Part shown: one piece after another, positions 4,307-63,381 of the stretch | Layout: each line of letters begins with the position of its first letter | Numbering within the stretch: the stretch's first letter is position 1 | From: Candidatus Uhrbacteria bacterium | GTDB taxonomy: Bacteria; Patescibacteriota; Patescibacteriia; 2-12-FULL-60-25 | NCBI GenBank assembly: GCA_963816085.1 | Contig: CAWFIX010000003.1 | Span: forward strand, 487,167-551,166 | DNA length: 64,000 bases | Direction of reading: 5' to 3' | Notes under the pieces: model-generated | What the model was told of the DNA's origin: nothing | Databases searched by the model: none | The model's input: only the letters and a program-made list of their open reading frames with translations | Program-made: the position numbers and the translations under genes

Positions 4307-5197
4307 CTAAATCCTCTTCCGGATTCTCAAGATTGCTTTGATGGCTTCGATACCGTCCCTAAAATGGCGGATTTGGCTTTTGCGGTTGGGATAGCGGAAT
4401 TCGAGCCATGGGACGGGGACCTCGGTTATCCTTAACCTATCTTGCCTGGCTTTTGCTAAAAATTCAATATCCAAAAACCAACCGTCCTCCTCGCAAGATT
4501 TAAGCACAGCCAAGCCTTTTTCGTTCATTATTTTTAAACCGCATTGTGCGTCCGCTACTTTAAGATTTAAAAAGAGGTCGGCCATGAAGTTAAAGAGTTT
4601 TGAGCTTAGAGTTCGGAGCCAGTTGCGGTTCGTGGTTTTGGTGATGAGCAAGCGTGAGGCAATGACGATGTCGGCTTTGTCTTCGAGCAGTCGCGCGACC
4701 ATGCCGGGGATGGCATCCGGGTCGGCGGAGAGGTCGGCATCGATGAAACCGAAGAGACTGTCGAACGACGAACTTCGAACCACGAACTTCGATTCGGAGG
4801 GCGGAAATCTCCCAATCAACGCTTTGCGTTGATATCCCTCTTTATTAAAGAGGGTTTCAGAAACCTGATTAGATGCAAAACGGATCGCGGAGCCTTTGCC
4901 GACTTTGGGACAATCTAAATAGACAAATTGGTCCTGGGTCCTGGGTACTGAACCAACCGATTGGTCCTGGGTCCTGGGTACATGGTCCTGGTTACTTTTG
5001 TCGGAGCCAGGACTATGGACGTAGGACCATGTACGAATGATTTCTTCAGTAGTTTGTTTAGTGTTATCGGTTGATCCATTATCAGCTACGATTATCTGCC
5101 ATGGGATAGGTAAATCGGCCAGGGTTTTGGCGAGGCGGTGGAGGGTGTTTGTGATGTAGGGGGCTTCGTTGCGGGAAGGGATGACGAGGTGGAGCAT
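4307..5197 (-). CDS. GT2 glycosyltransferase (polyprenol-phosphate hexosyltransferase-like) carrying two repeat-derived in-frame inserts
   Basis: 'VIPSRNEA', 'IVADNGSTDNT', 'GKGSAIRFA' and DXD 'FIDADLSADP'. Inserts VPRTQDQSVGSVPRTQDQ and ETLFNKEGYQRKALIGRFPPSESKFVVRSSSFDS coincide with DNA repeats. Confidence 0.85.
   Translation of the reverse strand: MLHLVIPSRNEAPYITNTLHRLAKTLADLPIPWQIIVADNGSTDNTKQTTEEIIRTWSYVHSPGSDKSNQDHVPRTQDQSVGSVPRTQDQFVYLDCPKVGKGSAIRFASNQVSETLFNKEGYQRKALIGRFPPSESKFVVRSSSFDSLFGFIDADLSADPDAIPGMVARLLEDKADIVIASRLLITKTTNRNWLRTLSSKLFNFMADLFLNLKVADAQCGLKIMNEKGLAVLKSCEEDGWFLDIEFLAKARQDRLRITEVPVPWLEFRYPNRKSQIRHFRDGIEAIKAILRIRKRI
4761..4796. repeat. Heptad tandem repeat tract (GAACTTC/GAACnAC units) inside the GT2 ORF
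   Basis: tcgaacgacgaacttcgaaccacgaacttcgattcg. Same family as 15428-15460. Confidence 0.8.
4800..4853 (-). mobile_element. Hairpin-module element (two small hairpins) inside the GT2 ORF
   Basis: Reverse strand reads ccctctttaataaagaggg, tatcaacgcaaagcgttga, ttgggagatttccgcc. About 80% identical by eye to 22632-22690. Confidence 0.75.
4928..4992. repeat. Heptad tandem repeat tract (TGGTCCT/GGGTCCT units) inside the GT2 ORF
   Basis: tggtcctgggtcctgggtac ... tggtcctgggtcctgggtacatggtcctgg. Confidence 0.85.
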
Positions 5198-5989: not shown

Positions 5990-6613
5990 ATGTTAAAAAC
6001 AACACCATGGGAAGATTTTTTTAGAGCTAAAATAACCAAAATATTTACGGAAAGTAAAAATGTTTTGGACATAGGCGGAGGTTTGCGAGTTGCTAAAGAT
6101 AAAAATAATCGATATTTGGCCAAAAATGAATGGATTTTGCCATTATTGCAAAATGTAGATTATAAAGTTTTGGATCCTGTGCCGGATTATAATCCGGATA
6201 TTGTTGGGGATATTCACGACCTGCCTTTTACGGATAATTCATTGGATGCGATTATTTGCAATGCTGTTCTAGAGCATGTCAAAAACCCGTTTAAGGCGGT
6301 AGAAGAGATGCATCGAGTATTAAAACCCGGTGGTCATTGTTTTGTTTATGTGCCATTCTTATATTATTATCATCCCATGAAAGGTTATTACGCTGATTAT
6401 TGGAGATTCACCAGCGACGGAATAGATGAGTTGTTTAAACAATTTTCGAGTACGGAAAAACAAAATGTTAGAGGTGCCATTGAGACATGGATGCACCTAT
6501 CCCCTTTGGCAAAATATAAAACACCAAATTATCTGGCGTCACTGCTTGATCGAGCGTTTAATAAAATTACCTCTAATCAAACAAGCGGTTTTAATGTATT
6601 TCTGATTAAATAA
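5990..6613 (+). CDS. Class I SAM-dependent methyltransferase (type 11-like)
   Basis: 'VLDIGGGLRV' and 'LPFTDNSLDAIICNAVLEHVKNPFKAVEEMHRVLKPGGHCFV'. Confidence 0.85.
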   Translation: MLKTTPWEDFFRAKITKIFTESKNVLDIGGGLRVAKDKNNRYLAKNEWILPLLQNVDYKVLDPVPDYNPDIVGDIHDLPFTDNSLDAIICNAVLEHVKNPFKAVEEMHRVLKPGGHCFVYVPFLYYYHPMKGYYADYWRFTSDGIDELFKQFSSTEKQNVRGAIETWMHLSPLAKYKTPNYLASLLDRAFNKITSNQTSGFNVFLIK

Positions 6614-6615
6614 AT

Positions 6616-7305
6616 ATGAACCATCTACAGCAATTAATGATTCATGTGCCAAATTTAGATAAAATGAAATTAGTGGATATTGGCGCGGGTAAAGGTGGTT
6701 TTATGATGCAAGCTTTGGACGCGGGTGTAGATATTTATGGATTGGAGAAAAATGAGGATAATATTAAACTCGCACAACAAAAAATGGCGGAAAAGGGTTA
6801 TGAACAAAATCGTATAATCCAAGGCTTGGTGGAATCTTTGCCGTGGCCGGATGCGGGTTTTGATTTTGCAAATGCTTCCGAGGTTTTGGAGCATGTGGAG
6901 GATCCGGATAAAATGCTACATGAGATTCATCGTATATTAAAAACCGGTGGCCAAGCTTACGTAAGTATTCCCAATAGATTTGGTTTATATGACCCTCACT
7001 TTCATTTGTATTTTATCAACTGGATGCCAAGAAATTGGGCAATGAAAATTTTGAGCCTGCTTAAACAGCACAAAGATTATAATACCGATTCTGGCTATCA
7101 AAGCTTAACTCAAATGCATTATCATACTTATAAGAATGCTATTAAATTATTAACGAACCATGGTTTTGAAGTTACTGACACACGGTTAAGAAAAGTCTTG
7201 AATTTATCAAAAAATTCCCCGCTTAAAAAAATACTGACCATGTCTTATAAATTAACTGCACCATGGACTCTTTCGACTTTTCATTTTTGGTTAGTGAAGA
7301 AATAA
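6616..7305 (+). CDS. Class I SAM-dependent methyltransferase (type 11-like)
   Basis: 'LVDIGAGKGGF' and 'FDFANASEVLEHVEDPDKMLHEIHRILKTGGQAYV'. Confidence 0.85.
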   Translation: MNHLQQLMIHVPNLDKMKLVDIGAGKGGFMMQALDAGVDIYGLEKNEDNIKLAQQKMAEKGYEQNRIIQGLVESLPWPDAGFDFANASEVLEHVEDPDKMLHEIHRILKTGGQAYVSIPNRFGLYDPHFHLYFINWMPRNWAMKILSLLKQHKDYNTDSGYQSLTQMHYHTYKNAIKLLTNHGFEVTDTRLRKVLNLSKNSPLKKILTMSYKLTAPWTLSTFHFWLVKK

Positions 7306-7379
7306 AATATACAAAAAACTTACTACTGTAGCCATATAATAACTATCGAAAAAGTACGAAACCCGCAAACTTAAAAAGT

Positions 7380-8015
7380 ATGAAAAAAATTACACGTATA
7401 AAATTAGATCAAGCGATTTCAGCTTACACGGACGATGGCTTGACTTTGGAGGTTGGTTCTTATGGTACAGCTGATTATAAAAAGTATTTTCCCAACCGAG
7501 TCGGAATTGATATCAGGCCGGGTGAAGGCGTGGATAAGGTGGCGAGTGTTTATGCTTTGCCTTACCCGGACAATCATTTCGATAATGTCCTATGTATTAC
7601 CGTACTGGAACACCTAATCGAACCCCAAAAAGCCATAACCGAAATGAAGCGCGTCCTGAAAAAAAACGGAAAAATCATTGTTTCCGCGCCATTCCTTTAC
7701 CCAACACATGACGCGCCAAATGATTATTGGCGTTTCACTAAATATGGTATGGAACTTTTATTCAAAGATTGGCAAATAATTTATTTAAAAGGAGAAACAA
7801 ATGCCCAAGAAAGTATAGCTTCATTATTACAAAGATTAGGATTTCAATCAGATGTAAAAATGCGTTATTTTTTAAAAACTACGATTTATACAATGTCACA
7901 CATATTATTCAAACTACCCTATCTTTTTAGAAACATATACGGGAATATACAGAAAACTAAAATTGAACAAGATGCTTTTACCAGCTGCTTTTTTCTAGTT
8001 GCAGAGAAAATTTAA
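7380..8015 (+). CDS. Class I SAM-dependent methyltransferase (type 11-like)
   Basis: 'LPYPDNHFDNVLCITVLEHLIEPQKAITEMKRVLKKNGKIIV'. Confidence 0.8.
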   Translation: MKKITRIKLDQAISAYTDDGLTLEVGSYGTADYKKYFPNRVGIDIRPGEGVDKVASVYALPYPDNHFDNVLCITVLEHLIEPQKAITEMKRVLKKNGKIIVSAPFLYPTHDAPNDYWRFTKYGMELLFKDWQIIYLKGETNAQESIASLLQRLGFQSDVKMRYFLKTTIYTMSHILFKLPYLFRNIYGNIQKTKIEQDAFTSCFFLVAEKI

Positions 8016-9133
8016 TGAATATTACTTACATCCACAATTGCAGAATGCCGACCGAAAAAGCGCATGGCTATCAAATGGCTAAAATGTGCGAGGCTTTTGC
8101 GGATAGCAGCGTGAGTGTTGAACTCATCGTACCTGCGAGACACAATCATATTAAAGATGATATTTTTTCTTATTATCACACGAAAAACAATTTTACTATT
8201 CGTTATATAAAATTTGTTGATTTTCTGTCTTGGAGTTGGCTGAATCAGAAAATCAGTTTTACCTTAAACATTTTGGAATTTTTATGGCTCTCTCTTTTTT
8301 TAAAAATTGATAAACAAAATATCATTTACACACGTAGCCCCGAGTTAGCTTGGCTATTTGGAGTACGAGGTTATAAAACTTTTTTCGAGTGTCATCAGTT
8401 GCCGGAAAAAAAATCAAAATTGTTTGGATATTTCATAAAAACAATTCACGGGATTGTAACCATAACCAATGGCTTAAAACAAGACCTTGTTGCAGATTAT
8501 GCCTTTTCTGCCGATAAGATATTGACCGCGCCCGATGGAGTTGATTTGGAAACATTTGATATAAAAATAACACGCCAAGAAGCACGCGGGCAATTAGACA
8601 TACCAAGTGATAAAAAAATCATTTTATATACAGGTCATCTTTATACGTGGAAGGGAGTCGATACCTTGGCCGAAGCTTCAAAAAATTTGCCTGATGATTT
8701 TTTAATTTATGCAGTGGGAGGTGACGCAAAGGAAATAGCGGCATTTACAGAACGCAATCCAAATCATAAAATTATGAATATTCCTGCCGTACCCAGAACA
8801 ACGGTTGCGATTTGGCTCAAGGCCGCTGATTTTTTGATTTTGCCGAATAGCGCCAAAGAAAAAATTTCAGCCAAGTACACTTCACCGCTGAAATTATTTG
8901 AATTCATGGCAAGCGGAACTCCGATTATTGCCAGCGATCTGCCAAGTATCAGAGAAATTTTAGATAATGACAGTTGCTTTTTTTTCTGTGCAGACAGATC
9001 GCAAAGTCTTCAACTAACAATTGCTTCATCAATAAATGACTCTAAAATGCAGCAAAAAGGCGCAAAAGGGTTAGAACGAATCAAACTTTACACTTGGAAA
9101 AAAAGATGTTTAAGCATTATAGGATTCTTCTAA
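8015..9133 (+). CDS. GT4-family glycosyltransferase
   Basis: Two-Rossmann GT-B layout. C-terminal 'KYTSPLKLFEFMASGTPIIASDLPSIREIL'. One-nt overlap with the upstream methyltransferase. Confidence 0.8.
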   Translation: MNITYIHNCRMPTEKAHGYQMAKMCEAFADSSVSVELIVPARHNHIKDDIFSYYHTKNNFTIRYIKFVDFLSWSWLNQKISFTLNILEFLWLSLFLKIDKQNIIYTRSPELAWLFGVRGYKTFFECHQLPEKKSKLFGYFIKTIHGIVTITNGLKQDLVADYAFSADKILTAPDGVDLETFDIKITRQEARGQLDIPSDKKIILYTGHLYTWKGVDTLAEASKNLPDDFLIYAVGGDAKEIAAFTERNPNHKIMNIPAVPRTTVAIWLKAADFLILPNSAKEKISAKYTSPLKLFEFMASGTPIIASDLPSIREILDNDSCFFFCADRSQSLQLTIASSINDSKMQQKGAKGLERIKLYTWKKRCLSIIGFF

Positions 9134-9134
9134 A

Positions 9135-9839
9135 TTAATGCAATAATCCAAGTTTCTTGAGAAACGAACCCAGTTTTTGCATATAAACAAAAAAAGTATT
9201 ATAAATCGCATTACATCCGATATACGGTTCATAATTTCCTACTAAAGATTTTTTTTCAATGCAACTAAAATCATTGCCAAATTTTTCCGCCCATTTTTCT
9301 TTATCCTTTACGGCAATAGCAAAAATATAAACTGAAGCGTTGCGCTGACCATTAAAACTTAAATATTGTAAGTGCATGTTGTTTTTTTCAAACATCTTCT
9401 TAACCGCCAAAGGCGTCATTCTCCAATAATCACCGTAATCCGTATGCATTTGTTGCAAGAAAGGAATAACCAAAATTACAACATCTTTACTCATTAAGCA
9501 AAGGTTTTTAAAAGCTTGTTCAATCTCGAAAACATGTTCCAAAACAGTGTGATTAAAAATCACATCGAACTTTTCCACCAGCTCATTGGGTAATTCTTTT
9601 TCCAAATCCAAAAAAATTTCCCCCTCCATGCCCTGAAAACCCATGGCCTCGGTTTTATAATTGGTAATTGTGTAACTTTTTTTATTCTTAAAATAATTTT
9701 TATATTCATCCCCTTCCTTATCTTTATCTTGCCAACCACTAACATTAACAATATCCCCCTCAAATAAATGGGCGAATTTTTTTAATTCATTATTTGACCA
9801 GATTCTTGGTAATCTAAATTTACGGTCTACTATTTTCAT
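9135..9839 (-). CDS. Class I SAM-dependent methyltransferase
   Basis: 'FDVIFNHTVLEHVFEIEQAFKNLCLMSKDVVILVIPF'. Start moved to the Met at 9839 (ORF open to 9884). Confidence 0.75.
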   Translation of the reverse strand: MKIVDRKFRLPRIWSNNELKKFAHLFEGDIVNVSGWQDKDKEGDEYKNYFKNKKSYTITNYKTEAMGFQGMEGEIFLDLEKELPNELVEKFDVIFNHTVLEHVFEIEQAFKNLCLMSKDVVILVIPFLQQMHTDYGDYWRMTPLAVKKMFEKNNMHLQYLSFNGQRNASVYIFAIAVKDKEKWAEKFGNDFSCIEKKSLVGNYEPYIGCNAIYNTFFVYMQKLGSFLKKLGLLH

Positions 9840-11103: not shown

Positions 11104-11107
11104 GTGT

Positions 11108-12564: not shown

Positions 12565-12565
12565 A

Positions 12566-14245: not shown

Positions 14246-16552
14246 TTAGTTACCGGGTTTTATGTATTTATTCATATTGGCAATTAAAGCCGGCAGACTG
14301 TGCTTTGCCTTAATTATATCTCTTAAGTATTCAATATCATAATCTTTCCACTTTTCAGCAAGTATGAAATCCGCCATTTCCTTGGGATCGTCATTTTGGA
14401 TGGATACTGGCAAGCCGATAGCATTTGAGTTGCCTTTTGTGGTAATGGGGTAAATACCGAACAACATTGCCTCTACCATGGTTTTATCAATTGTCTCTGA
14501 GGCCATGTTGACCATCAATCTGTGCTTAGGATAGACCTGTTTAAGCTGGTGCATGGGGACCGGACCCATGAATTTAACACGCGATTCCAGCGATTCTTTT
14601 GCAACCAGCGCCTTAAGTTCTTCCACATATTCTTTCTCAACATCTCTACCGTAAATTGTTAAGTTGTATTTTTCCGGTAAATGTTTTAATGCTAAAATTC
14701 CCAATTCAAGGCGCTTGGATCTGCATAGGCGATGGACGGTTAGTAAATTATATTTTGTTTCATCGTCTGAACCGCGGATCGTTTCTGCCTCTTGCAGCCA
14801 AAAATCCAAATCGATTCCGTGCCCCAAAACAACTTTCTTGGTTCTCCCCTCATATTGTGGGAGACTTTGTTTTGTTGCAGCGAACATTCTCCGGCAAAGC
14901 AACCCCGACAGGAAAACATGTACATGCATGACGTAATGAGTAAACCAAAGATATATCGGGATTCTCCTTAGTGCCCAATACCACCCACCCAAAGTCACAT
15001 ACTCGGTATTCATGTGAACAAAAACTCTGTTGTATTTTAATGAAATTATTATTTTATAAAATTCAAAAATTCTCCGAATTTTGCCGTAACCCTTTTCTTT
15101 GCCCAGGGAATGAACCGGGAAAGAACCATCAAAAGCCCCCTTCTCCAAACAAATGACTTCGACATCGACTCCTTGCCTAATAAACTCTTTTATCCAAAGA
15201 ATGGTAAAAGCTAAATCATCATCATCTTGATTGATCTTTTGCGTTAAAAAAAGCATTTTAACTTTTTCTTCTGAATTTTGTTGATTTATCATAGATTGTT
15301 TTTCTTCATCGAATCGATTCTCGTGAGCACCCTCACTAAACTTCCAAAAATCTTCATCTTCCTTTTTTTTAGCGGATAGCTGATGGCTGATGGCGGATAG
15401 CAGGAAAACCTTCATGCTCGCTTCGCTCGCGAACATCGAACTTCGAACAACGAACAACGATTTTCCCAAAACAGATACCATTGCATTAGCTAGAGCGACT
15501 ACATCGCCGACGGGGACGATGATGCCGTTTTCGCTGTTTTTGACGACTTCCTCGGCACAGCCGACATCTGTCATTATAACAGGCGTGCTGCAGGCAAGCG
15601 ACTCAACGGCAGTCATGCCAAAGCCTTCGCGATCCGAGGTGATTAGTGTGGCGATAGCGTTGCGATAGAGTTCGGCGAGATCGTTTGTCCAGGGGATTAT
15701 TTCCACTCTGCTATGCAAATCAAAATCAGCGATCCATCTTTTAACTTGATCCTCGAGCGGGCCTGCGCCAACGATTTTTAGGTTAACATCAGGGTTTTGC
15801 TTGGCAAAGATGCTGAAGGCGTGGATTGCGAGGTCGATGCGCTTGATGGGGACGAAGCGGCAGACGACTAAAAAGTATTTTGTATTTTGTATCTCGTATC
15901 TCGCTGATCCCTGAGCGTCGTCCGTCACTGTCCACTGATCACTGTTCACTGCCCCCTGTTCACTGTTCACTAAGTTACTCTTTGCAGTTTGCAGTTTGAA
16001 GTTTTCATTTAGCACGACCGGAAAGCGGACGATTCGCTCCCTCGGCACGCCAAGCTTGATAAGTGCTTCTTCAGTTCTTTGGCTGACGACGCGGATTGCA
16101 TCCGCGCGGGTGACGATGAAGCGAGCAAAGAGATAGCGGAATTGGTTGAGCCAGGATTCTTGGCGGTAATAGTTACCGTGGAAGTGATAGCCGTGGTCTT
16201 GGATAGCGAGTGCTGAGTTTAAGAACTTTGACGCTAAATAGGCGACCAAGCCTGTCTCTGTAGGGTCTTGGGATGTGATGACTGCAAATTTTTGTTTGCG
16301 CAATTTCCAAACGATTCTTAGCGCATCGGTAACGTAAAAAAACTTGTTCCACGAGTTGGTGGAGATGACGCGCAAATTCGGCGTTATTCGCTCGTCAAAC
16401 TTTTGCTTGGCAAAGACGATGATCGTGGATTCAAAGCCCGCCTCTTCGAGTTGTTTGGCAATCCTTCCCCTCGCCGGGTGCCCATCTTGAAAAAGGCCTT
16501 TCTCGAGGCCGATTACCAACAATGGTTTGCGCTTTTCATTTTGATCGGGCAT
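14246..16552 (-). CDS. Tandem double GT4 glycosyltransferase (one ORF; could be two genes, second Met at 15256)
   Basis: First GT-B unit has 'SDREGFGMTAVESLACSTPVIMTDVGCAEEVV'. The second starts 'MLFLTQKINQDDDDLAFTILWIKEF'. Heptad-repeat-coded linkers lie at 15371-15460 and 15875-15971. Confidence 0.75.
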   Translation of the reverse strand: MPDQNEKRKPLLVIGLEKGLFQDGHPARGRIAKQLEEAGFESTIIVFAKQKFDERITPNLRVISTNSWNKFFYVTDALRIVWKLRKQKFAVITSQDPTETGLVAYLASKFLNSALAIQDHGYHFHGNYYRQESWLNQFRYLFARFIVTRADAIRVVSQRTEEALIKLGVPRERIVRFPVVLNENFKLQTAKSNLVNSEQGAVNSDQWTVTDDAQGSARYEIQNTKYFLVVCRFVPIKRIDLAIHAFSIFAKQNPDVNLKIVGAGPLEDQVKRWIADFDLHSRVEIIPWTNDLAELYRNAIATLITSDREGFGMTAVESLACSTPVIMTDVGCAEEVVKNSENGIIVPVGDVVALANAMVSVLGKSLFVVRSSMFASEASMKVFLLSAISHQLSAKKKEDEDFWKFSEGAHENRFDEEKQSMINQQNSEEKVKMLFLTQKINQDDDDLAFTILWIKEFIRQGVDVEVICLEKGAFDGSFPVHSLGKEKGYGKIRRIFEFYKIIISLKYNRVFVHMNTEYVTLGGWYWALRRIPIYLWFTHYVMHVHVFLSGLLCRRMFAATKQSLPQYEGRTKKVVLGHGIDLDFWLQEAETIRGSDDETKYNLLTVHRLCRSKRLELGILALKHLPEKYNLTIYGRDVEKEYVEELKALVAKESLESRVKFMGPVPMHQLKQVYPKHRLMVNMASETIDKTMVEAMLFGIYPITTKGNSNAIGLPVSIQNDDPKEMADFILAEKWKDYDIEYLRDIIKAKHSLPALIANMNKYIKPGN
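15371..15460. repeat. Two adjacent heptad tracts (GATAGCn and GAACnTC units) inside the double-GT4 ORF
   Basis: agcggatagctgatggctgatggcggatagc and gaacatcgaacttcgaacaacgaacaacga. Translated as SLFVVRSSMFAS...LLSAISHQLSA. Confidence 0.85.
15875..15971. repeat. Heptad tracts (GTATnTT/GTATCTC and nnCACTG units) inside the double-GT4 ORF
   Basis: gtattttgtattttgtatctcgtatctcg and cgtcactgtccactgatcactgttcactgccccctgttcactgttcact. They lie in the linker between the two Rossmann halves of the first GT. Confidence 0.85.
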
Positions 16553-16729
16553 GGGATGAAAGATAAGATAAATATGACACACCGGTATCGAGATCTTACA
16601 TTAGATTATAGTAAAAGTCGCCCTTTTGTCCACAAAAATGCAATTTCAACTTTATTTGGAGATTATTGCCGAAAAATAGCCATTTTTGCTTGTAAATTAC
16701 GCTATAACCTGATAATCTTGGTTGGTCTT

Positions 16730-22320: not shown

Positions 22321-22382
22321 TTGCTTTTTAGCCTTTTTATGCTAAAACTACCATTGTGGATAATTTACCTAAACAAGCGGTA

Positions 22383-23692
22383 ATGCTCATGATTACCAGC
22401 CAAGATTGGGGCGGAGCTCAGCTCTATGTTTTTGAATTGGCCAAGGAACTGAAAGGCGCGAGGTGAGGAGGTTATCGTGGTGGCTGGGAGTAACGGAAAT
22501 CCTCTGTCTCTTCGAGACATCTCCTTTGACAAGGAGACTTTACCAAAGCGCCCCCTCGTCTCCGCCATAGGCGGATCCGCCTATGGCGGAAAAGGGGGAT
22601 ATTCAATGCAAAGCATTGAATCGGGGGATTTGAGCCCTCTTGTCAAAGAGGGACATTTAACGCAAAGCGTTAATTGGAGATATCCGCCGGGCCATGAATT
22701 GGGCCAAAGATGCCGAGAAGAAGGCATCAATTTTATCGAGCTGAAAAATGTGGCTCGTGATATTAATCCAATTGCAAATGTTATTGTCGATGATCGAGCT
22801 CATAAAACTTTTTAGACAACTAAAACCACGGGTCGTGCATCTAAACTCTACGATGATGGGTGTGGTGGGTTCTCTTGCCGCGACTTTGACCAGAGTCCCC
22901 AAGAGGATTTATTGTATTGGAGGTTGGGTTTTTAATGAAGATTTACCAACCTGGAAAAAGAATTTGTATATTTGGATAGAGAGACTTAGCGCAAGATGGA
23001 AAGATGTGATTATTGTTGTGCATCCGGGTGATGAGGAGTTGGCGAAAAAGTTAAAGATAGAACCGCAAAAAAAACTGGTTACCATCCCCAATGGAATTGC
23101 AATCGAAGAATTTGAATCTAAATTACTGAGTCGGAACGAAGCAAGAGAAAAACTTGGCATTGATCCTGAAGCGATAATAATTGGAAATATCGCAAATGCT
23201 TATCCACCTAAGAATCTTTTTTGGTATTTGGAAGTTTGTAAAAAGATCCACGACGCAGATAAGAGAATCTGCTTCGTAATAATTGGCGAGGGGCCGCAAT
23301 TTGCGGATTTAAAGAAAAAAAGAGATGCCTTGGGTGCAGGGAGCTATGTTATGCTGGCCGGGCGTAGGATGGATGCACCAACTTTGTACAAGGCTTTTGA
23401 TTTATTTGTACTCCCCTCTTCTAAAGAAGGTATGAGTATTACATTGCTCGAGGCCATGGCTGCAAAAGTCCCAATCGTTGCCACGGATGTTGGCGCGGCA
23501 AAGTGGATGCTTGGTAGTGGTGGTGTGATAGTCCCATCCGGTAATGCAGATGCGATGCAATCTGCGATCTTGGATTTAGTGTTTAATTCCGAAAAACAAA
23601 AAAACATCTCGCAGATGGCCCACGAGATGCTTTTAAATAATTTTGATTTGCAAAAACTTTTTGATTCTACAATAGAGATTATAAATCAATAG
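22383..23692 (+). pseudogene. GT4 glycosyltransferase split over three frames and carrying a 192-nt hairpin-module insert
   Basis: 'MLMITSQDWGGAQLYVFELAKELKG' (frame 0, TGA at 22464), 'VVAGSNG...EEGINFIELKNVARDINP' (frame 1), 'LIKLFRQLKPRVVHLNS...' to the end (frame 2). Confidence 0.8.
22501..22692 (+). mobile_element. Cluster of five small hairpins (64 codons, stop-free) inserted in the GT4 gene
   Basis: tctcctttgacaaggaga; ccgccataggcggatccgcctatggcgg; attcaatgcaaagcattgaat; ccctcttgtcaaagaggg; ttaacgcaaagcgttaa. Confidence 0.8.
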
Positions 23693-26896: not shown

Positions 26897-26930
26897 AAAA
26901 TCCCCCCGCATTTCTGCGGGGGGATTTTTC
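26897..26930. terminator. Bidirectional rho-independent terminator downstream of the surface-protein gene
   Basis: aaaatccccccgca-tttc-tgcggggggatttt, a GC-rich stem flanked by A and T runs. Confidence 0.8.
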
Positions 26931-33954: not shown

Positions 33955-34058
33955 TTTCAATGAGAATAGCAAAAAAACTCCCGAGCGCGTTTCGGGAGTT
34001 TTAAAAATAATATACCGGGACGTATCTCTCAAGATCGAGCGATATCCGGCAGTTTTTT

Positions 34059-38829: not shown

Positions 38830-38847
38830 GAACTAGGTAGTCTATCA

Positions 38848-38924
38848 AGTTTAAAGTTTGTAAAGTTCATAAAGTTGGCTTTCTTGCATCTTTATGAACT
38901 TTAAACTTTATGAACTTTATGAAC
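38848..38924. repeat. Inverted repeat built from 7-9 nt units (AAAGTTn / CTTTATGAA)
   Basis: agtttaaagtttgtaaagttcataaagttgg / ctttatgaactttaaactttatgaactttatgaac. Confidence 0.85.
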
Positions 38925-39020
38925 TATATTATAGCATATGTGAGAATGGCAAAAAAGTGCGCAATCAAGGGAAATTTCACCCTTTGCTAGATGTGAAACG
39001 ATATTTTGCTCCGTCATCCC

Positions 39021-48898: not shown

Positions 48899-51097
48899 TT
48901 ATTGCAATTTCACGGTAAACACTTGATCGTACAGCGACCCGGCCTGCGCTTCGTAGTTTGTGTCGCCCCATTTTTCCTCGGGCTCGGGTGGCTCGGCGGT
49001 GGCGATACTTTGTGGGAAGAGAATTTTAACGTTGAGTTCTGCGTTATCGACACCGGGTTGTTTGGGCCAATCGAGGCGATAGGTGCCATCTAAAATTGAT
49101 GCGACGGACGATTTGGGGAGCTCGTAGGTGAAAGCAAGTTTACCTGTTTTGCCAGGTTCGATAGCCCAGAATGCACCGAACACGGTTTTGCCAAGTTCTT
49201 TCATGACGTCGACGGTACCCGGAGCAAAACGACCGCCGGTTTGAGTGAGGTCGCCTGCCATGGCGCCGGTAGATGAGATGAGTTGGCTACCCTCGGGAAC
49301 ATAGACGCGAGTGTAACTGCGGTAACGAGTGTAACGCCAAGTGATTTGCCTGTTTGTGTTTTGATACGTGAAGGTGACGTTGGCTTTCGGATGCTCGAGA
49401 TCGCGTGCATCAAGAGTATATTGAATTGATTTTGACATCACGCCATCCGTTTTTAGTGCTGCGAGATTGGCATCGATTATCCAAAGAAAGTCTCCATCTG
49501 TTGGTTTAGTTCTACCACTCCAATTGCGAGCGTCTACAACAGATTGAATCTTGGGATTGCGATTGTAGATGAGGATTTGTTTTTGATCGAGTGCTGTGGT
49601 GATGATGCTGATAATTTTTGGCCATTCGGACCTTGGTAGAGCTTGGATTTTAGCCAGAATCTCATCCCCTACTTTGCCCATTAAATCTTTGCGATTTTCT
49701 TGAGTGATATCGGGCGCGACTTCGACTTCGTATTGAAGCACATCCATGAAGTTTGAAGTATTAAATGTTTTACCTTCCACGATGACCGGGCCGGTGAAAG
49801 CTAGGAGGGATTCGAAAAATCCCGGTTCCAAGGCGATAAAACCATCTTGATGCGGTGCGGGCTTGCCAAGTGGGACCGCGCGCTCACGTTCGTAGAAATC
49901 CAGAATCCTCTCGGCGGAAGTTGGGAAATCGGGCGACCAGTTAGCATCGCGCATAAACCATTTGGTAACACCGAGATTTTTTTGGATGGGTGCGGGCGGT
50001 ACTTCGCTCCAAACTCCTGAGGCTGGATTATCGATGTCGTAAATATCAAAAAATTCGTATGATTCGATATTGCCCGCATCCAGCTCCGCTGTGACGATAC
50101 TTCCGATAAAACCTCCAGCCGGGCGAATCTCGTCGGCATTTTGAGTTGCTATCACATAATTTTGTGGATCCGGATAGCCAAGCAAAGGAATGAATACTTC
50201 GATTAAAGGGACTCCTTGTTCGAGAGATTGTTGCAAAATTGGCAAGTAAACAGTCATTGGCTCGAGCGCGTCGCGGATTGGGCCGGCGAGTTGATCTTTG
50301 GGCAAATCGTTCCACATGGCAAGAGCGATATCGATTTTATCACGAGCAAGGCGGATCTCGGGTAAAGATCTGTAAAGTGATTCCAACAATGCCAAACGCT
50401 CTTCCTTGGTTAGATCTTGCAGGCGCTCGGAAGCATCGACATCCACCTGGGTCGCACCGGTTGTTTTTGTGGCAAGGAACATTGCTTCTTGCAATGCGCC
50501 GGCAACATTTAAAATATCTTGTACGCCATCTAATGTTTGTGAGCTGACTTGAGCAGTATCTTGTAATCCACGGATTTGAGTACCAAGGTAAGGCATATCG
50601 CGCCAAAAGCCAACGCCGTTTAGATAGCTCTGCATGGCATCAAACTGTTCTTGCGCTGTGCCGGCTTCGGATTTAGCGGAATCGAACTCGCCTGCCTCCA
50701 GCATGTTTTGCATGCTCTCGAGCGAGAGTTTAGCTTGATAGCCAGACCAACCGGCACGACCCAAGGCGATAAGCGGCGGGATAAAGAAAATTCCCAAAAT
50801 AATTACTACCGCAAGAATTGCATATCTGAGTTTACGGTTTTTCTTAACTTTTCCTCGTCCCACGTCGCTCGTCCCACGTCCTACGTCGGCTGCGTTGCGT
50901 TCAATATCATCATCCGGGCGGAGAGGAATGAAGGGTTTACCTACGTCAACGCGTCCCACGTCGCTCGTCCCACGTCCCGCGTCAGCAACACCAATAACGT
51001 TATTGGGTACAACTTCGGAAACTGAAGAATCCAGCTCGTGGGGAGGCGGTAGTGAGGGGACGCTTGGGCAAGTTAGAAAATTCGGTGATTGCACCAT
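48899..51097 (-). CDS. DUF4012-like membrane-anchored protein
   Basis: N-terminal TM 'YAILAVVIILGIFFIPPLIAL'. 'NYVIATQNADEIRPAGGFIGSIVTAEL' matches the DUF4012 core as I recall it. The N-terminal tail carries heptad-coded 'GRGTSDVGR' repeats. Confidence 0.7.
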   Translation of the reverse strand: MVQSPNFLTCPSVPSLPPPHELDSSVSEVVPNNVIGVADAGRGTSDVGRVDVGKPFIPLRPDDDIERNAADVGRGTSDVGRGKVKKNRKLRYAILAVVIILGIFFIPPLIALGRAGWSGYQAKLSLESMQNMLEAGEFDSAKSEAGTAQEQFDAMQSYLNGVGFWRDMPYLGTQIRGLQDTAQVSSQTLDGVQDILNVAGALQEAMFLATKTTGATQVDVDASERLQDLTKEERLALLESLYRSLPEIRLARDKIDIALAMWNDLPKDQLAGPIRDALEPMTVYLPILQQSLEQGVPLIEVFIPLLGYPDPQNYVIATQNADEIRPAGGFIGSIVTAELDAGNIESYEFFDIYDIDNPASGVWSEVPPAPIQKNLGVTKWFMRDANWSPDFPTSAERILDFYERERAVPLGKPAPHQDGFIALEPGFFESLLAFTGPVIVEGKTFNTSNFMDVLQYEVEVAPDITQENRKDLMGKVGDEILAKIQALPRSEWPKIISIITTALDQKQILIYNRNPKIQSVVDARNWSGRTKPTDGDFLWIIDANLAALKTDGVMSKSIQYTLDARDLEHPKANVTFTYQNTNRQITWRYTRYRSYTRVYVPEGSQLISSTGAMAGDLTQTGGRFAPGTVDVMKELGKTVFGAFWAIEPGKTGKLAFTYELPKSSVASILDGTYRLDWPKQPGVDNAELNVKILFPQSIATAEPPEPEEKWGDTNYEAQAGSLYDQVFTVKLQ
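50855..50986. repeat. Two heptad tracts (CGTCCCA/CGTCGCT units) inside the DUF4012 ORF
   Basis: tcgtcccacgtcgctcgtcccacgtcctacgtcgg and cctacgtcaacgcgtcccacgtcgctcgtcccacgtcccgcgtcagc. Same family as 58514-58550. Confidence 0.85.
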
Positions 51098-57957: not shown

Positions 57958-57992
57958 ATAAAAACGCTCCGATTGCTCGGAGCGTTTTTTTG
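57958..57992. terminator. Bidirectional rho-independent terminator between the 57886 gene and rplL
   Basis: aaaaacgctccga-ttgc-tcggagcgttttttt. Confidence 0.9.
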
Positions 57993-57994
57993 TT

Positions 57995-58038
57995 GTACGA
58001 AGTACGAAGTACGAAGTACGATGTACGACGTACGTCGA
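57995..58038. repeat. Heptad tandem repeat (GTACGAA x3, GTACGAT, GTACGAC, GTACGTC)
   Basis: Read directly. Lies immediately 3' of rplL. Confidence 0.9.
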
Positions 58039-58046
58039 TTTGATAG

Positions 58047-58469
58047 TTATTTGAGTTCGCAAGAACCACCGGCATCTTCGATCTTTTTCTTGATCTCTTC
58101 CGCCTCGGCTTTTGAAGCGCCTTCTTTGATAACTTTAGGAGCGCCGTCTACCATGTCTTTAGCTTCTTTCAAGCCCTGGCCTGTGACTTCGCGAACAACT
58201 TTGATGACACCAATTTTATTGCCACCTGCTGCTGTTAGCTCTACATCAAATGAAGATTTCTCTTCAGCTGCTTCGGCACCACCTGCTGCACCACCGGCCA
58301 TCATGACAGGAGCTGCTGCGCTAACACCGAATTTCTCTTCGAGAACTTTTACAAGTTCGGATAAATCGAGAACCGAGAGTTTCTCTACGCTTTCTACGAT
58401 TGTTTTAAATTTTTCAGGCACTACAACTTCTTTCTTCTCCTCTGTTGCCTGTGTATTCTCATCGGACAT
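58047..58469 (-). CDS. rplL: 50S ribosomal protein L7/L12
   Basis: '[24 protein letters not shown]', '[53 protein letters not shown]'. Confidence 0.95.
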
Positions 58470-58513
58470 AAACTTATTTTAATTAATAAATAATAGATAA
58501 TAAATAATAAAGA

Positions 58514-62643: not shown

Positions 62644-63381
62644 ATGAAAAAAATAGAAAAGATAACCGCCAGCTACTATGGAGAAAATGGTACTTATCTA
62701 GAAGACCATGCCCGGTTCTTAACCAAAGAAAGACTGAAAAATGATATACATTTCATATCAAAAATTTTAAGTCTGAAAAAAACAGATAAAATATTGGATA
62801 TAGCATGTGGTCAAGGACGCCATACGTTAACTTTGGCAGAAAAAGGTTATTCGGTAGATGGTTTGGATTTTTCCGAGTATCTATTAGATATTGCCAAGAA
62901 GGTGGCTTCAAAAACCACAAACCACAAACCATTTTTTTATAAAGAAAATTTGGAAAACATGGAATTGAAACAAAAGTATGATAAAGCTTATTGGTTTTTT
63001 ACCGACTTGGCGCAAATAGATTTACGCAAGGCTCTTCATTCAATAAGTAATTCGATGAAACGCGGTGGATTGGTATTAATTGATACAGACAATATATTCC
63101 GCATATTAACATATCTTTTACAAAATCCCGGTTCTGCATATACTTTTGATGCAAAGCGATTAATGCTCGTAGATAAAAAAAGAGGCTTAGAAGTGCCATA
63201 TCCAGTTTTATTTATGTGGGAAGAATGGATAAAAGCTGCCGGGTTTTCACTTGTTTCAACTTATGGAGACTATAAGCTTGAAGAATATTCTATTAAAAGT
63301 CCACGTCTTATAATGTTAATTAAAAAAAACGGGCAAGGTTGCCCGTTGAGTAGTTCAAATTCATGCCGATGCGGCATGTGA
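62644..63381 (+). CDS. Class I SAM-dependent methyltransferase
   Basis: 'ILDIACGQGRHTLTLAEKGYSVDGLDFSEYLLDIAKK'. The last roughly 15 codons run through the terminator hairpin, so the true stop may differ. Confidence 0.8.
   Translation: MKKIEKITASYYGENGTYLEDHARFLTKERLKNDIHFISKILSLKKTDKILDIACGQGRHTLTLAEKGYSVDGLDFSEYLLDIAKKVASKTTNHKPFFYKENLENMELKQKYDKAYWFFTDLAQIDLRKALHSISNSMKRGGLVLIDTDNIFRILTYLLQNPGSAYTFDAKRLMLVDKKRGLEVPYPVLFMWEEWIKAAGFSLVSTYGDYKLEEYSIKSPRLIMLIKKNGQGCPLSSSNSCRCGM
63322..63347 (-). terminator. Rho-independent terminator of the radical SAM gene
   Basis: aacgggcaa-gg-ttgcccgtt preceded on the plus strand by an A8 run (a U-run on the minus strand). Confidence 0.75.

What the first reader, a model, noticed from the sequence alone, without database searches (positions are those of the whole stretch)
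4761..4992. Heptad tracts are read through in frame inside a GT2 gene, and the same tract is read in the same frame in an unrelated GT4 gene
ORF 4307..5197 is uninterrupted. It carries extra segments between canonical GT2 landmarks. 'VPRTQDQSVGSVPRTQDQ' (TGGTCCT heptads, 4928-4992) lies between 'ADNGSTDNT' and 'GKGSAIRFA'. '...SESKFVVRSSSFDS' (GAACTTC heptads, 4761-4796) lies between 'GKGSAIRFA' and the DXD motif. The same GAACTTC family at 15428-15460 inside the double GT4 gene is translated as 'SLFVVRSSMFAS', which is the same frame. Seven-nt DNA periodicity gives 7-aa peptide periodicity. The caveat is that these units contain no stop codon in any of the three sense frames I checked by hand. 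Staying open may therefore be intrinsic to the sequence; only the multiple-of-3 length would need selection. Either these are tolerated loop insertions, as with Rickettsia palindromic elements, or the genes are decaying.
Basis: partly seen in the sequence, partly recalled or inferred. Interest (0 to 1): 0.7.

Follow-up and report, generated by a model that had tools for sequence, protein, structure and literature searches.

The report
Seven-base repeats translated inside enzyme loops
In one lineage of tiny uncultured bacteria (Patescibacteria), short 7-base tandem repeats and a small double-hairpin repeat litter the genome, and some sit inside working sugar-transferase genes, where they are translated as floppy surface loops. 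This is real and lineage-wide, but it belongs to a kind of thing already known from other bacteria.

Summary
ORF 4307..5197(-) is an intact GT2 gene with two extra segments at the stated places, and both contain period-7 DNA. Period-7 tracts are far above chance in the window: 30 observed against 1.1 in shuffles.

Distant homologues (232-240 aa) lack both segments. Relatives in the same Patescibacteria clade carry different heptad tracts at the same two sites.

The gene is not decaying. Core dN/dS is 0.04-0.12. AlphaFold places both inserts in disordered helix-to-strand loops, while the core is confident and resembles ArnC, DPMS and GtrB.

The "same frame in GT4" point is true but empty. Because 7 and 3 are coprime, a heptad tract read in any of the three frames of a strand gives the same cyclic 7-residue peptide. 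It is therefore open in all three frames or in none.

Selection shows elsewhere. Where a unit contains a stop, the repeat is broken exactly at the codon that would have been the in-frame stop.

A 56-nt double-hairpin dispersed element, mostly intergenic elsewhere and with 10 compensating stem variants, lies next to the heptads. That makes the comparison with Rickettsia palindromic elements apt.

Not every genic tract is an insertion. One in a methyltransferase replaces a native loop with no change in length.

Verdict: a new member of a known kind, of moderate interest.

The parts
4307..5197 (-). Host gene: a GT2 glycosyltransferase of the polyprenyl-phosphate type. It is intact at 296 aa, against about 235 aa in homologues without inserts.
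   Evidence: ORF. PF00535 match. Foldseek hits to ArnC, DPMS and GtrB at E about 1e-12. Core dN/dS 0.04-0.12.
4928..5026 (-). Site-1 insert, residues S58-Q90, in the loop between helix 46-60 and strand 91-95. It is predicted to be disordered.
   Evidence: Absent from distant homologues in alignment A1. pLDDT is below 50 for residues 62-70 and 74-86. Among the orthologous loci aligned, only L001 (= P0002) shares this insert, at 89% nt identity.
4927..4991 (-). Heptad tracts with sense-strand unit CAGGACC. They form a 22-nt direct repeat (4927-4948 and 4960-4981) 33 nt apart and encode VPRTQDQ twice.
   Evidence: Tandem Repeats Finder rows 4930-4950 and 4963-4991. Direct-repeat family D1.
5007..5038 (-). 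Decayed inverted partner of the CAGGACC tract (TCCTACG TCCATAG TCCTGGC ...). Together they form an imperfect hairpin with arms 4960-4991 and 5007-5038.
   Evidence: Inverted repeat I1: 32 nt arms, 75% complementary, 15 nt between the arms.
4760..4864 (-). Site-2 insert, residues about V112-D146, in the loop between helix 101-117 and strand 148-151. It is composite: a double-hairpin element followed by a heptad tract.
   Evidence: Alignment A1. pLDDT below 50 for residues 117-144. As RNA it folds into three consecutive hairpins, z-score -3.15.
4800..4858 (-). Copy of a dispersed double-hairpin element of about 56 nt, translated as TLFNKEGYQRKALIGRFP. It has hairpin 1 (CCCTCTTTA-a-TAAAGAGGG, 4836-4854), hairpin 2 (ATCAACGC-aaa-GCGTTGAT, 4815-4833) and a tail TGGGAGATTTCC.
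   Evidence: Perfect stems of 9 and 8 bp. The pattern CCCTCT..AGAGGG occurs 5 times in the window against 0.03 expected. There are 17 copies in related genomes, mostly intergenic, with 10 distinct stem sequences, all but one fully complementary. Only one of the three sense frames is open.
4761..4796 (-). Heptad tract with sense-strand units TTCGNNG (TTCGTGG TTCGAAG TTCGTCG TTCGAC), encoding SKFVVRSSSFDS.
   Evidence: Tandem Repeats Finder: period 7 at 72% matches, period 14 at 94%. Lag-14 score 15. The tract has the same length in 5 orthologues but different, internally uniform units.
14246..16582 (-). Double-module GT4 gene. The two-module fusion is conserved in relatives and was not created by the repeats.
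   Evidence: Pfam match. Homologues of 690-1280 aa have two or three modules. Alignment A2.
15370..15460 (-). Two heptad tracts at the end of GT4 module 1 and in the linker between modules: 15370-15398 (AISHQLSA) and 15428-15460 (SLFVVRSSMFAS). They align with native segments of relatives rather than forming a clean insertion.
15875..16004 (-). Block of four heptad tracts (units AAAATAC, GTGAACA, CTGCAAA on the sense strand) in the linker between the two domains of GT4 module 1. This is an insert of about 26 aa relative to P0142-P0145. Would-be in-frame TGA codons are mutated to GGG and TGG.
62912..62931 (+). AAACCAC x2.9 (100% matches in Tandem Repeats Finder) inside the methyltransferase gene 62644..63381, encoding KTTNHKP, which is exactly one 7-codon cycle. 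It occupies a native variable loop with no length change.
50852..50983 (-). Two near-identical 32-nt heptad tracts (sense unit GACGTGG) 96 nt apart. They lie in the N-terminal tail, before the hydrophobic stretch, of the DUF4012 protein 48899..51097. Peptides: DVGRGTSDVGR.
22601..22690 (+). Second window copy of the double-hairpin element, inside a GT4-like gene. It is read in the same strand and frame as in GT2 (LSPLVKEGHLTQSVNWRYPPG) and is part of an open array of at least 6 small hairpins. The host gene needs three reading frames.

Best explanation
The source is a Patescibacteria (CPR) genome from a clade, with relatives labelled Uhrbacteria and Parcubacteria. DNA in this clade is seeded with two kinds of small repeat.

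The first kind is imperfect tandem tracts of 7-nt units, 2-10 copies long. They resemble the heptameric simple-sequence repeats of cyanobacteria (STRR) and Xanthomonas. The second kind is small perfect hairpins, including a double-hairpin element of about 56 nt.

Both kinds are concentrated between genes. They also persist inside genes wherever the protein tolerates them: helix-to-strand loops on the side of a Rossmann-like sheet away from the active site, linkers between domains, and terminal tails.

In GT2 4307..5197 they form two disordered loops of about 33 residues each in an otherwise conserved, functional enzyme, and the ribosome reads through them.

Heptads survive in ORFs because of arithmetic plus selection. 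A 7-nt unit read in triplets uses all seven of its cyclic trinucleotides in every frame. A unit without TAA, TAG or TGA on the sense strand is therefore open in all three frames. Units that do contain a stop persist only with the periodicity broken at the would-be stop codon. Net length must stay a multiple of 3.

The tracts turn over in place by slipped-strand or transient-misalignment events that make neighbouring units alike. The segments are also shuffled between lineages by homologous recombination.

Shown: presence of the repeats, restriction to the clade, loop location, purifying selection on the core, purging of stops, compensating variation in the hairpin stems, and mosaicism. Inferred: the slippage mechanism, that the inserted peptides have little or no effect on function, and actual translation (there are no proteomic data).
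For: Real and clade-specific:
- Lag-7 tracts number 30 against 1.1 in shuffles.
- Density per 10 kb is 2.7 in the window, 5.7 in orthologue loci and 4.1 in unrelated loci of related genomes, against 0.12 in outgroups. Period 7 dominates periods 5-11.

The GT2 segments are extras:
- Homologues of 232-240 aa lack both segments. Clade members carry different inserts at the same two sites.
- In L001-L010, nine of the ten orthologues have 1-5 period-7 tracts within or at the ends of the gene, with other units such as ATTTCGT, AAATTCG, TGTACGA, CAATTAC, AAGAATT and CCGGACT. L006 has none at this threshold. Outgroups have none.

Functional host gene:
- dN/dS is 0.04-0.12 over 140 core codons, at dS from 0.36 to saturation.
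- All orthologous ORFs are intact.

Loop location:
- The AlphaFold2 model has a core pLDDT above 90. The inserts score below 50 and have no secondary structure. They lie between H46-60 and E91-95, and between H101-117 and E148-151.
- The fold matches ArnC, DPMS and GtrB.

Arithmetic and selection:
- The three frames of a heptad tract give the same cyclic peptide.
- The tracts are open in all three sense frames.
- Units containing a stop are broken at the in-frame stop position: GT4 TGA to GGG and to TGG; L009 and L010 TAA to GAC and to TAT.
- Stop-containing units on the sense strand are 9 of 51 genic tracts, against 13 of 30 per strand for intergenic tracts.

Turnover:
- The site-2 tract has identical length in 5 orthologues, but the units are alike within a genome and differ between genomes.
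- Units are more related to each other than random heptamers: 255 pairs at distance <=1 against 65 expected.

Hairpin element:
- There are 17 copies, 10 stem variants, all but one fully complementary, mostly in intergenic positions.

Mosaicism:
- Different segments of the gene have different nearest relatives.
Against: - No expression or proteomic data. Read-through is inferred from ORF conservation only.
- Only 64 kb of a 1.32-Mb contig, plus about 125 kb of related loci, could be surveyed.
- Persistence of heptad tracts at the same two GT2 sites in nine of ten orthologues is more than simple tolerance requires. So is the 93% nt conservation of the hairpin element between the window and L030. 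Both could mean selection at the DNA or RNA level.
- The heptad units are enriched in 4-nt palindromes (48 of 81 against 29.8 expected). This is unexplained and hints at a sequence-specific process rather than generic slippage.
- Why the unit is 7 nt rather than 5, 6 or 8 is not explained.
Confidence: 0.72

Rival explanations
1. The inserts are kept for a function at the nucleic-acid level. The hairpins and self-pairing heptad tracts inside the mRNA or DNA would act as pause, stability, processing or protein-binding sites, and the encoded peptide would be a by-product.
For: Hairpin 2 keeps full (in one copy near-full) complementarity through 10 different stem sequences. The whole site-2 insert folds as three hairpins with z-score -3.15. 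The element is 93% identical between the window and L030, similar to or above neighbouring core segments. Heptad tracts persist at the same sites across saturated dS. Units are enriched in palindromic 4-mers.
Against: Distant homologues work without any insert. Related orthologues replace hairpins 1 and 2 with unrelated, non-hairpin sequence (type Y in L001 and L003). Compensating stems can equally reflect the element's own propagation or its intergenic role, since most copies are intergenic. No Rfam family matches at gathering score.
Confidence: 0.14
2. The heptad tracts are contingency loci. Gain or loss of one 7-nt unit would shift the frame and switch these surface-glycan genes on and off.
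For: The unit length is not a multiple of 3. The host genes are glycosyltransferases in a large surface-polysaccharide locus, the classical setting for phase variation. Some related genomes have perfect genic tracts, for example AATGCCA x4.5 in L031. A neighbouring GT4-like gene is frameshifted.
Against: The GT2 tracts are short and imperfect, at 72-92% matches and no more than 3 perfect units. All 12 orthologous genes are in frame. Tract length at site 2 is identical in 5 orthologues. The same tracts are commoner between genes and also occur in a methyltransferase and in protein tails. I saw no heptad tract at the two frameshifts of the GT4-like gene, by eye only.
Confidence: 0.07
3. The genes are decaying pseudogenes that merely stay open because the repeat units lack stop codons.
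For: The tracts are intrinsically open in all three frames. One nearby GT4-like gene (22382-23692), which carries the hairpin array, needs three frames.
Against: GT2 core dN/dS is 0.04-0.12. All catalytic motifs are invariant. The core is modelled with confidence. Outside the tracts, the inserts have stops in the other two sense frames, so the open frame is maintained.
Confidence: 0.03
4. Assembly or binning artefact in a metagenome-assembled genome.
For: The source is a MAG, and repeats are a known cause of misassembly.
Against: The same architecture appears in more than 15 independent assemblies from different studies. An identical protein is on record from a 1.32-Mb contig.
Confidence: 0.01

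Closest known systems
STRR (short tandemly repeated repetitive sequences) of heterocystous cyanobacteria, and the heptameric simple-sequence repeats of Xanthomonas and Nostoc (Rehm et al. 2015, PMC4692102)
   Same: Tandem 7-nt units in short runs, dispersed over the genome, over-represented between genes and under-represented (but present) inside genes. Heptamers are noted there as an over-represented repeat class in many bacteria.
   Different: The host phylum differs (Patescibacteria). The unit repertoire is different and much more diverse: no G-rich quadruplex motif, and many units have ACGT, GTAC, TTCGAA or AATT cores. Here the genic copies are documented as translated loop segments at conserved sites across orthologues.
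Rickettsia palindromic elements (Ogata et al. 2000; reviewed in PMC10969869)
   Same: A dispersed palindromic repeat family that inserts in frame into unrelated metabolic genes. It adds a peptide at positions compatible with the fold, and the host gene stays functional.
   Different: The element here is about 56 nt, against about 100-150 nt for the Rickettsia elements. It consists of two tiny perfect hairpins, and most copies are intergenic. Only two genic copies were seen in the window. No sequence relationship was tested. The heptad tracts themselves are tandem repeats, not palindromic elements.
Tandem repeats of Borg elements that create amino-acid repeats and disordered regions (PMC9879509)
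   Same: Nucleotide tandem repeats inside ORFs that do not break the frame, evolve fast, and create disordered regions at similar places in homologous proteins.
   Different: Genic units in Borgs are all divisible by 3 and the repeats are perfect. Here the unit is 7 nt, the tracts are short and imperfect, and the peptide period is 7 aa only through the 21-nt super-unit.
Phase-variable contingency loci (for example the tetranucleotide repeats in Haemophilus lic and lgtC, PMC2651432)
   Same: Repeat unit not divisible by 3, inside glycan-biosynthesis genes.
   Different: No long perfect tract, and no out-of-frame alleles among 12 orthologues. The tracts are also common in non-switch contexts.

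Membership tests
Heptameric simple-sequence repeats / STRR-like | Tandem repeats with a 7-nt unit, many loci dispersed over the genome, in excess of chance | tested here: met
   30 tracts against 1.13 in shuffles. Period 7 dominates periods 5-11.
Heptameric simple-sequence repeats / STRR-like | Enriched in intergenic DNA, under-represented in coding DNA | tested here: met
   About 12-14 of 30 window tracts lie in real genes, although about 85-89% of the window is ORF. That gives roughly 9-fold higher density between genes.
Heptameric simple-sequence repeats / STRR-like | Cyanobacterial host and the STRR consensus units (from memory: CCCCAGT-like and TTGGTCA-like) | tested here: not met
   The host is Patescibacteria. 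Units are ACATCGT, AATTACC, AAGTACG, ACGTCCC and others. So it works like STRR but is not a member of that named set.
In-frame palindromic dispersed element (like Rickettsia palindromic elements / MITE / REP) | Multi-copy dispersed family with conserved sequence | tested here: met
   2 copies in the window, 2 in L023, 1 in L002 and 12 in eight metagenome loci.
In-frame palindromic dispersed element (like Rickettsia palindromic elements / MITE / REP) | Palindromic (hairpin) structure maintained across copies | tested here: met
   Hairpin 1 is invariant. Hairpin 2 has 10 distinct stems of 7-12 bp; all are fully complementary except one copy with a mispair near the loop.
In-frame palindromic dispersed element (like Rickettsia palindromic elements / MITE / REP) | Inserted in frame in protein genes that stay functional | tested here: met
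   GT2 of the window, of L030 and of L002. A second genic copy at 22630-22690 is in the same frame, but its host gene is frameshifted.
In-frame palindromic dispersed element (like Rickettsia palindromic elements / MITE / REP) | Terminal inverted repeats, target-site duplication, or an associated transposase (RAYT or IS) | not tested
   Flanks were not analysed for duplications. No transposase was looked for beyond the window.
In-frame palindromic dispersed element (like Rickettsia palindromic elements / MITE / REP) | Sequence homology to Rickettsia palindromic elements | not tested
Given the host and the size (56 nt against about 100-150 nt), homology is not expected.
Phase-variable contingency locus | Repeat unit not divisible by 3, inside an ORF or promoter | tested here: met
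   7-nt units inside the GT2 and GT4 ORFs.
Phase-variable contingency locus | Long, perfect repeat tract | tested here: not met
   The GT2 tracts have 3-4.6 copies at 72-92% matches.
Phase-variable contingency locus | Alleles that differ by unit number and are out of frame | tested here: inconclusive
   12 of 12 orthologues are in frame, and the site-2 tract length is constant in 5 of them. No within-population read data were available.
Borg-type amino-acid tandem repeats | Genic repeat unit length divisible by 3, perfect repeats | tested here: not met
   The unit is 7 nt and the tracts are imperfect, against PMC9879509.
GT2 polyprenyl-phosphate glycosyltransferase (host gene) | GT-A fold with a DXD motif; PF00535; structural similarity to DPMS, GtrB and ArnC | tested here: met
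   PF00535 at E 7e-21. D153-A-D155 is invariant. Foldseek E about 1e-12 to 9asc and 5mlz.

The most novel reading that the evidence does not exclude
This Patescibacteria clade has an active, sequence-specific process, not generic slippage, that keeps writing 7-nt tandem tracts and small perfect hairpins into its DNA. The process would overwrite native loops without changing their length. These repeats would then serve as recombination joints that remodel enzyme loops in modules, giving a built-in generator of variation in surface-glycan genes. Three observations point this way: the limited and inter-related unit repertoire shared between genomes, its enrichment in 4-nt palindromes, and persistence at orthologous sites despite saturated synonymous divergence.
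Probability: 0.15. Interest if true: 0.75.

Novelty: new member of a known kind. Interest (0 to 1): 0.45.

Why it matters
- It documents that a CPR/Patescibacteria lineage, usually described as having a streamlined genome, is peppered with heptameric tandem repeats and a hairpin element. My literature searches found no description of this.
- It shows that such DNA is routinely absorbed into proteins as disordered loops, linkers and tails.
- For annotators, it explains odd low-complexity peptides with a 7-aa period (KFEIRNS, NYQLPIT, YDVRCTM, RTSYVVHRT) and length variation among Patescibacteria proteins.
- It gives a simple rule: a 7-nt tract is open or closed in all three frames together. This cautions against reading 'same frame' as a signal.
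- Spurious ORFs can arise where heptad tracts stay open, for example 57973..58482, which lies antisense to the ORF 58047..58469. C-terminal extensions arise in the same way.
- It offers a natural experiment on which loops of GT-A, GT-B and Rossmann-fold enzymes tolerate insertions of about 30 residues.

Tried and rejected
- Rfam at gathering threshold over the whole window: 0 matches. The hairpin element is not a described RNA family.
- tRNA and tmRNA scan: none. No integration-site clue.
Tract ends are fuzzy, and any insert in an intact gene must be a multiple of 3.
- Single-linkage clustering of heptad units at distance <=1 chained 68 of 81 units into one cluster and could not define families. 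I used pair counts against a null instead.
- My first hairpin script mis-reported stem and loop sizes and dropped small-loop palindromes. I rewrote it.
- 'The GT4 fusion was created by a stop-free heptad spacer' was rejected. Two- and three-module fusions are conserved in relatives at 37-56% identity.
- 'All genic tracts are insertions' was rejected. The methyltransferase tract and parts of the GT4 tracts align with native segments without gaps.
- Shared specific origin of the GT2 and GT4 TTCGNNG tracts was rejected. The 28/36 identity equals what the family consensus predicts.
- Searching the short motifs AACGCAAAGCGTT and TTGGGAGATTTCCGCC with mismatches in the window gave counts near chance and added only the 22.6-kb copy.
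Full report
**1. The observation**

ORF 4307..5197 on the minus strand is uninterrupted and encodes 296 aa. It matches Pfam PF00535 (Glycos_transf_2) in two stretches, that is, with an interruption.

Tandem Repeats Finder reports three arrays in the gene:
- GGTCCTG at 4930-4950: 3.0 copies, 92% matches.
- GGTCCTG at 4963-4991: 4.1 copies, 72% matches.
- TCGAACT at 4761-4792: 4.6 copies, 72% matches, and better as period 14 at 94%.

One correction is needed. The '4928-4992 tract' is two short tracts forming a 22-nt direct repeat 33 nt apart. VPRTQDQ therefore recurs with an 11-aa spacing, not a 7-aa spacing.

Period-7 repetition is far above chance in the window. A lag-7 scan finds 30 tracts at score >=8, against 1.13 in dinucleotide shuffles. 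At score >=10 it finds 20 against 0.03. Lags 14 and 21 appear as harmonics, and lags 5 and 6 show nothing.

The GT4 tract at 15428-15460 reads SLFVVRSSMFAS. It is on the same strand and in the same codon phase as SKFVVRSSSFDS in GT2, with 28 of 36 nt identical.

**2. Source organism and extent of the phenomenon**

The GT2 protein is identical to a database protein from a 1,323,527-bp contig. Its relatives are annotated as Patescibacteria, Uhrbacteria or Parcubacteria MAGs.

The window is a large surface-glycan locus. It holds a GtrA-like protein, a sugar transferase, the GT2, several methyltransferases, a flippase, many GT4 genes, epimerases and a Wzy-like ligase.

Period-7 tracts (score >=10) per 10 kb:

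| Sequence set | Tracts per 10 kb |
|---|---|
| Window | 2.7 |
| Orthologue loci L001-L010 and L023 | 5.7 |
| Eight unrelated loci from related metagenomic genomes | 4.1 |
| Outgroup loci (Dehalococcoidia, Saccharibacteria, Bacteroidota, Firmicutes, archaea) | 0.12 |

So this is a property of the clade, not of this gene or of one assembly.

**3. The GT2 segments are lineage-specific inserts in loops of a working enzyme**

In a 36-sequence alignment, distant homologues (232-240 aa) have neither segment. Clade members (260-330 aa) have inserts of different length and sequence at the same two sites, plus variable C-terminal tails.

- Site 1 lies between the DNGSTDxT helix and the strand before GKG.
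- Site 2 lies between the GKGxAIRxA helix and FGFIDADLS.

At the DNA level, nine of the ten orthologous loci carry 1-5 period-7 tracts within or at the ends of the gene. L006 has none at this threshold. The units differ between genomes: ATTTCGT, AAATTCG, TGTACGA, CAATTAC, AAGAATT, CCGGACT and GACGCGG. This accounts for relatives' peptides such as KFEIRNS, NYQLPIT, YDVRYTM and NEFRISY.

An AlphaFold2 model built on this alignment has a confident core: 151 residues with pLDDT >=90. Residues 62-70, 74-86 and 117-144 score below 50 with no secondary structure. They fall between helix 46-60 and strand 91-95, and between helix 101-117 and strand 148-151.

Both inserts are helix-to-strand loops. By the general rule for Rossmann-like sheets (established knowledge, not tested here), such loops lie opposite the ligand-binding edge.

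The fold matches ArnC, dolichyl-phosphate mannose synthase and GtrB.

Over 140 core codons, dN/dS against 7 orthologues is 0.04-0.12, at dS from 0.36 to about 4. Three further pairs are saturated. The 'decaying gene' alternative is therefore rejected for GT2.

**4. Why 'same frame' carries no information**

Because 7 and 3 are coprime, a heptad tract read in triplets visits all seven cyclic trinucleotides of the unit in each frame. The three frames give the same 7-aa cycle, only phase-shifted. The tract is open in all three frames or closed in all three (demonstrated).

The three tracts indeed have no stop in any sense frame.

'Same frame' reduces to 'same strand', which is a 1-in-2 event. For this family even that is weak, because the TTCGAA core is its own reverse complement.

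The 28/36 identity between the GT2 and GT4 tracts equals what the shared consensus TTCGNNG predicts: 5 of 7 positions fixed, plus chance matches. No common origin beyond family membership is indicated.

**5. Where selection does show**

Some genic tracts have a consensus unit that contains a stop. In these the periodicity is broken exactly at the codon that would have been the stop.
- In GT4, unit GTGAACA should read GTG AAC AGT GAA CAG TGA ACA. The two turns actually read ...CAG GGG GCA and ...CAG TGG ACA.
- In L009 and L010, AAGAATT tracts read ...AAT GAC GAA and ...AAT TAT GAA where TAA was due.

Stop-containing consensus units are 9 of 51 on the sense strand of genic tracts, against 13 of 30 per strand in intergenic tracts.

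Outside the tracts proper, the inserts do have stops in the other two sense frames. Openness of the whole insert is therefore maintained, not intrinsic.

**6. The second insert is composite**

Immediately 5' of the TTCGNNG tract (on the sense strand) lie three parts:
- a perfect hairpin, CCCTCTTTA-a-TAAAGAGGG (4836-4854);
- a second perfect hairpin, ATCAACGC-aaa-GCGTTGAT (4815-4833);
- the tail TGGGAGATTTCC.

This unit of about 56 nt is a dispersed repeat.
- The pattern CCCTCT..AGAGGG occurs 5 times in the window, against 0.03 expected.
- A second full copy lies at 22630-22690.
- In L023, which comes from the same MAG as L001, two tandem copies lie between convergent genes. They carry a compensating G:C to A:T change in hairpin 2.
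- A pattern scan of metagenome contigs found eight more loci. Seven look intergenic and one is the GT2 orthologue L030.

Across 17 copies, hairpin 2 has 10 different stem sequences of 7-12 bp. All are fully complementary except one copy with a mispair near the loop. L002's GT2 has hairpin 1 followed by a different 12-bp hairpin at the same place.

By reading the element sequence in triplets by hand, I find only one frame per strand open. This explains why both genic copies in the window use the same frame: TLFNKEGYQRKALIGRFP and PLVKEGHLTQSVNWRYP.

The whole site-2 insert folds as three consecutive hairpins, with a z-score of -3.15.

This part of the insert is the real counterpart of in-frame Rickettsia palindromic elements.

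Site 1 also has palindromic character. The CAGGACC tract pairs with a decayed inverted partner at 5007-5038. Several intergenic hairpins in the window have arms made of tandem 7-9-nt units.

**7. Turnover and mosaicism**

The site-2 heptad tract has exactly the same length in the window, L030, L001, L002 and L003. Its units are alike within a genome and differ between genomes:
- GTTCGNN variants in the window;
- three or four perfect ATTCGAA units in L030 and L003;
- ATACGAA and ATTCGAA alternating in L001.

That is the signature of concerted evolution without net length change. I infer slipped-strand or transient-misalignment copying under selection for frame.

Different segments of the gene have different nearest relatives:

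| Segment | Nearest relative of the window | Other orthologues |
|---|---|---|
| Helix alpha-2 plus site 1 | L001, 89% | 41-43% |
| Hairpin element | L030, 93% | L002 65%; L001 and L003 37% |
| Site-2 heptad tract | L002, 84% | L030 58% (L030's tract matches L003's) |

All four combinations of the site-1 and site-2 states occur. Recombination between lineages has therefore shuffled the segments.

Heptad units across 11 genomes are more related to each other than random heptamers: 255 pairs at distance <=1, against 65 expected. They are enriched in palindromic 4-mers (48 of 81, against 29.8 expected) and in CG. The GTACGAT family occurs at 10 places in 5 genomes. I have no explanation for this, and it is the main reason to keep a sequence-specific mechanism open.

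**8. Other genes**

- **GT4 gene 14246..16582.** It has a block of four tracts (15875-16004) in the linker between the two Rossmann domains of module 1. This is an insert of about 26 aa relative to P0142-P0145. Relatives have other heptad-like inserts there, for example PGARSPE...PGARSPE. Two more tracts (15370-15460) lie at the junction between modules. The two-module fusion itself is conserved.
- **DUF4012 protein.** It has two near-identical 32-nt tracts in its N-terminal tail.
- **GtrA-like ORF.** It has a tract in an N-terminal extension that may not be translated.
- **Methyltransferase 62644..63381.** It contains AAACCAC x2.9 (100% matches in Tandem Repeats Finder), encoding KTTNHKP. In 13 homologues the aligned segment has the same length and there is no gap. 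Here the tract has overwritten a variable loop rather than been inserted.
- **Related genomes.** Further genic tracts occur in unrelated proteins. The C-terminal tails of GT2 orthologues, such as RTSYVVHRTNFK, are encoded by heptad tracts at the 3' end of the gene.

**9. Comparison with what is known**

- **Closest kind.** The closest kind is the heptameric simple-sequence repeats, STRR-like, described in cyanobacteria and Xanthomonas. These are mostly intergenic and under-represented in genes. The unit sequences and the host differ, so this is not a member of the named STRR set.
- **Hairpin element.** It behaves like in-frame palindromic elements or MITEs. Terminal repeats, target duplications and a transposase were not examined.
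- **Borg tandem repeats.** They also create disordered regions in ORFs, but their units are divisible by 3 and their repeats are perfect.
- **Phase-variable loci.** They share the unit length not divisible by 3 and the glycan-gene setting. The tracts here are short and imperfect, and no out-of-frame orthologue was seen.
- **Literature.** Two full-text searches found no paper on heptanucleotide or simple-sequence repeats in Patescibacteria or the Candidate Phyla Radiation. That is weak negative evidence, given the library's limits.

**10. Verdict**

'Tolerated loop insertions' is supported, 'decay' is rejected for GT2, and the frame coincidence is an arithmetic necessity.

The finding is best described as a new lineage showing a known kind of repeat biology. 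It adds three useful details: purging of stops at predictable codons, a translated double-hairpin element, and overwriting of loops in place.

Confidence in the main explanation is 0.72, and interest is 0.45.

Noticed in passing
window 22382-23692 (+): A GT4-like gene needs three reading frames. The N-terminus MLMITSQDWGGAQLYVFELAKELK is in one frame, ARGEEVIVVAGSNG... to 22815 is in a second, and ...LIKLFRQLKPRVVHLNS... from 22748 is in a third. It could be a pseudogene, an assembly indel or recoding. Between the two shifts lies an open run of about 65 codons made of at least 6 small perfect hairpins, including the second copy of the double-hairpin element.
   Followed up: partly
window 38838-38926, 46307-46375, 46908-46988, 59354-59494: Intergenic hairpins whose two arms are themselves tandem arrays of 7-9-nt units (for example GTCGTAAC and its complement). 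They lie between divergent or convergent genes. Their function is unknown.
   Followed up: no
L004 3865-3894, L007 3895-3921, L008 1017-1043, L030 861-888: In GT2 orthologues the ORF runs on into a stop-free heptad tract at the 3' end. This gives C-terminal tails such as RTSYVVHRTNFK that the window protein lacks.
   Followed up: partly
window 4700-5090 against L030, L001, L002, L003: The gene is mosaic. The nearest relative changes between the site-1 region (L001), the hairpin element (L030) and the site-2 heptad tract (L002). This implies recombination breakpoints at or near the repeats.
   Followed up: partly
window 62912-62931: An AAACCAC x2.9 tract (100% matches in Tandem Repeats Finder) in a methyltransferase occupies a variable loop with no length difference from 13 homologues. 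The tract arose in place or overwrote native sequence rather than being inserted.
   Followed up: yes
window, and L001-L010 (81 tract units): Heptad units are enriched in palindromic 4-mers (48 of 81 against 29.8 expected; largest of 500 random sets 44) and in CG. The GTACGAT family recurs at 10 places in 5 genomes. This is unexplained.
   Followed up: partly
window 57973-58482 (+): A 169-aa ORF with no Pfam match, starting in the GTACGAA x5.7 tract, is almost certainly spurious. It lies antisense to ORF 58047-58469, which follows the L10 gene and is probably rplL (not checked). Stop-free heptads can seed false ORF calls.
   Followed up: partly
window 26897-26928, 33974-34002, 41023-41047, 57960-57989: Classical bidirectional terminator-like hairpins (an A-run, a perfect 11-14-bp stem, then a T-run) are also present. 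The heptad and CCCTCT hairpins are therefore not the only terminator-like structures.
   Followed up: no
window 39144-40997 (+) and 41294-43696 (-): Two large Gly/Ser/Thr/Ala-rich proteins with 9-, 18-, 36- and 54-nt repeats (GTGGSAGTGG...) sit in a local block of 53-57% GC. The second has MopE-type metal-binding motifs.
   Followed up: no
window 58588-59277 (-): Ribosomal protein L10 carries a C-terminal tail of about 70 aa rich in acidic residues, Pro and Ala (EAPKAEAE...), encoded by 15- and 18-nt repeats.
   Followed up: no
window about 6000-13000: A low-GC block (0.33-0.37, against about 0.45 elsewhere) lies inside the glycan locus and covers methyltransferases, a GT4 and the flippase. 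It may be a horizontally acquired cassette. It contains almost no heptad tracts.
   Followed up: no
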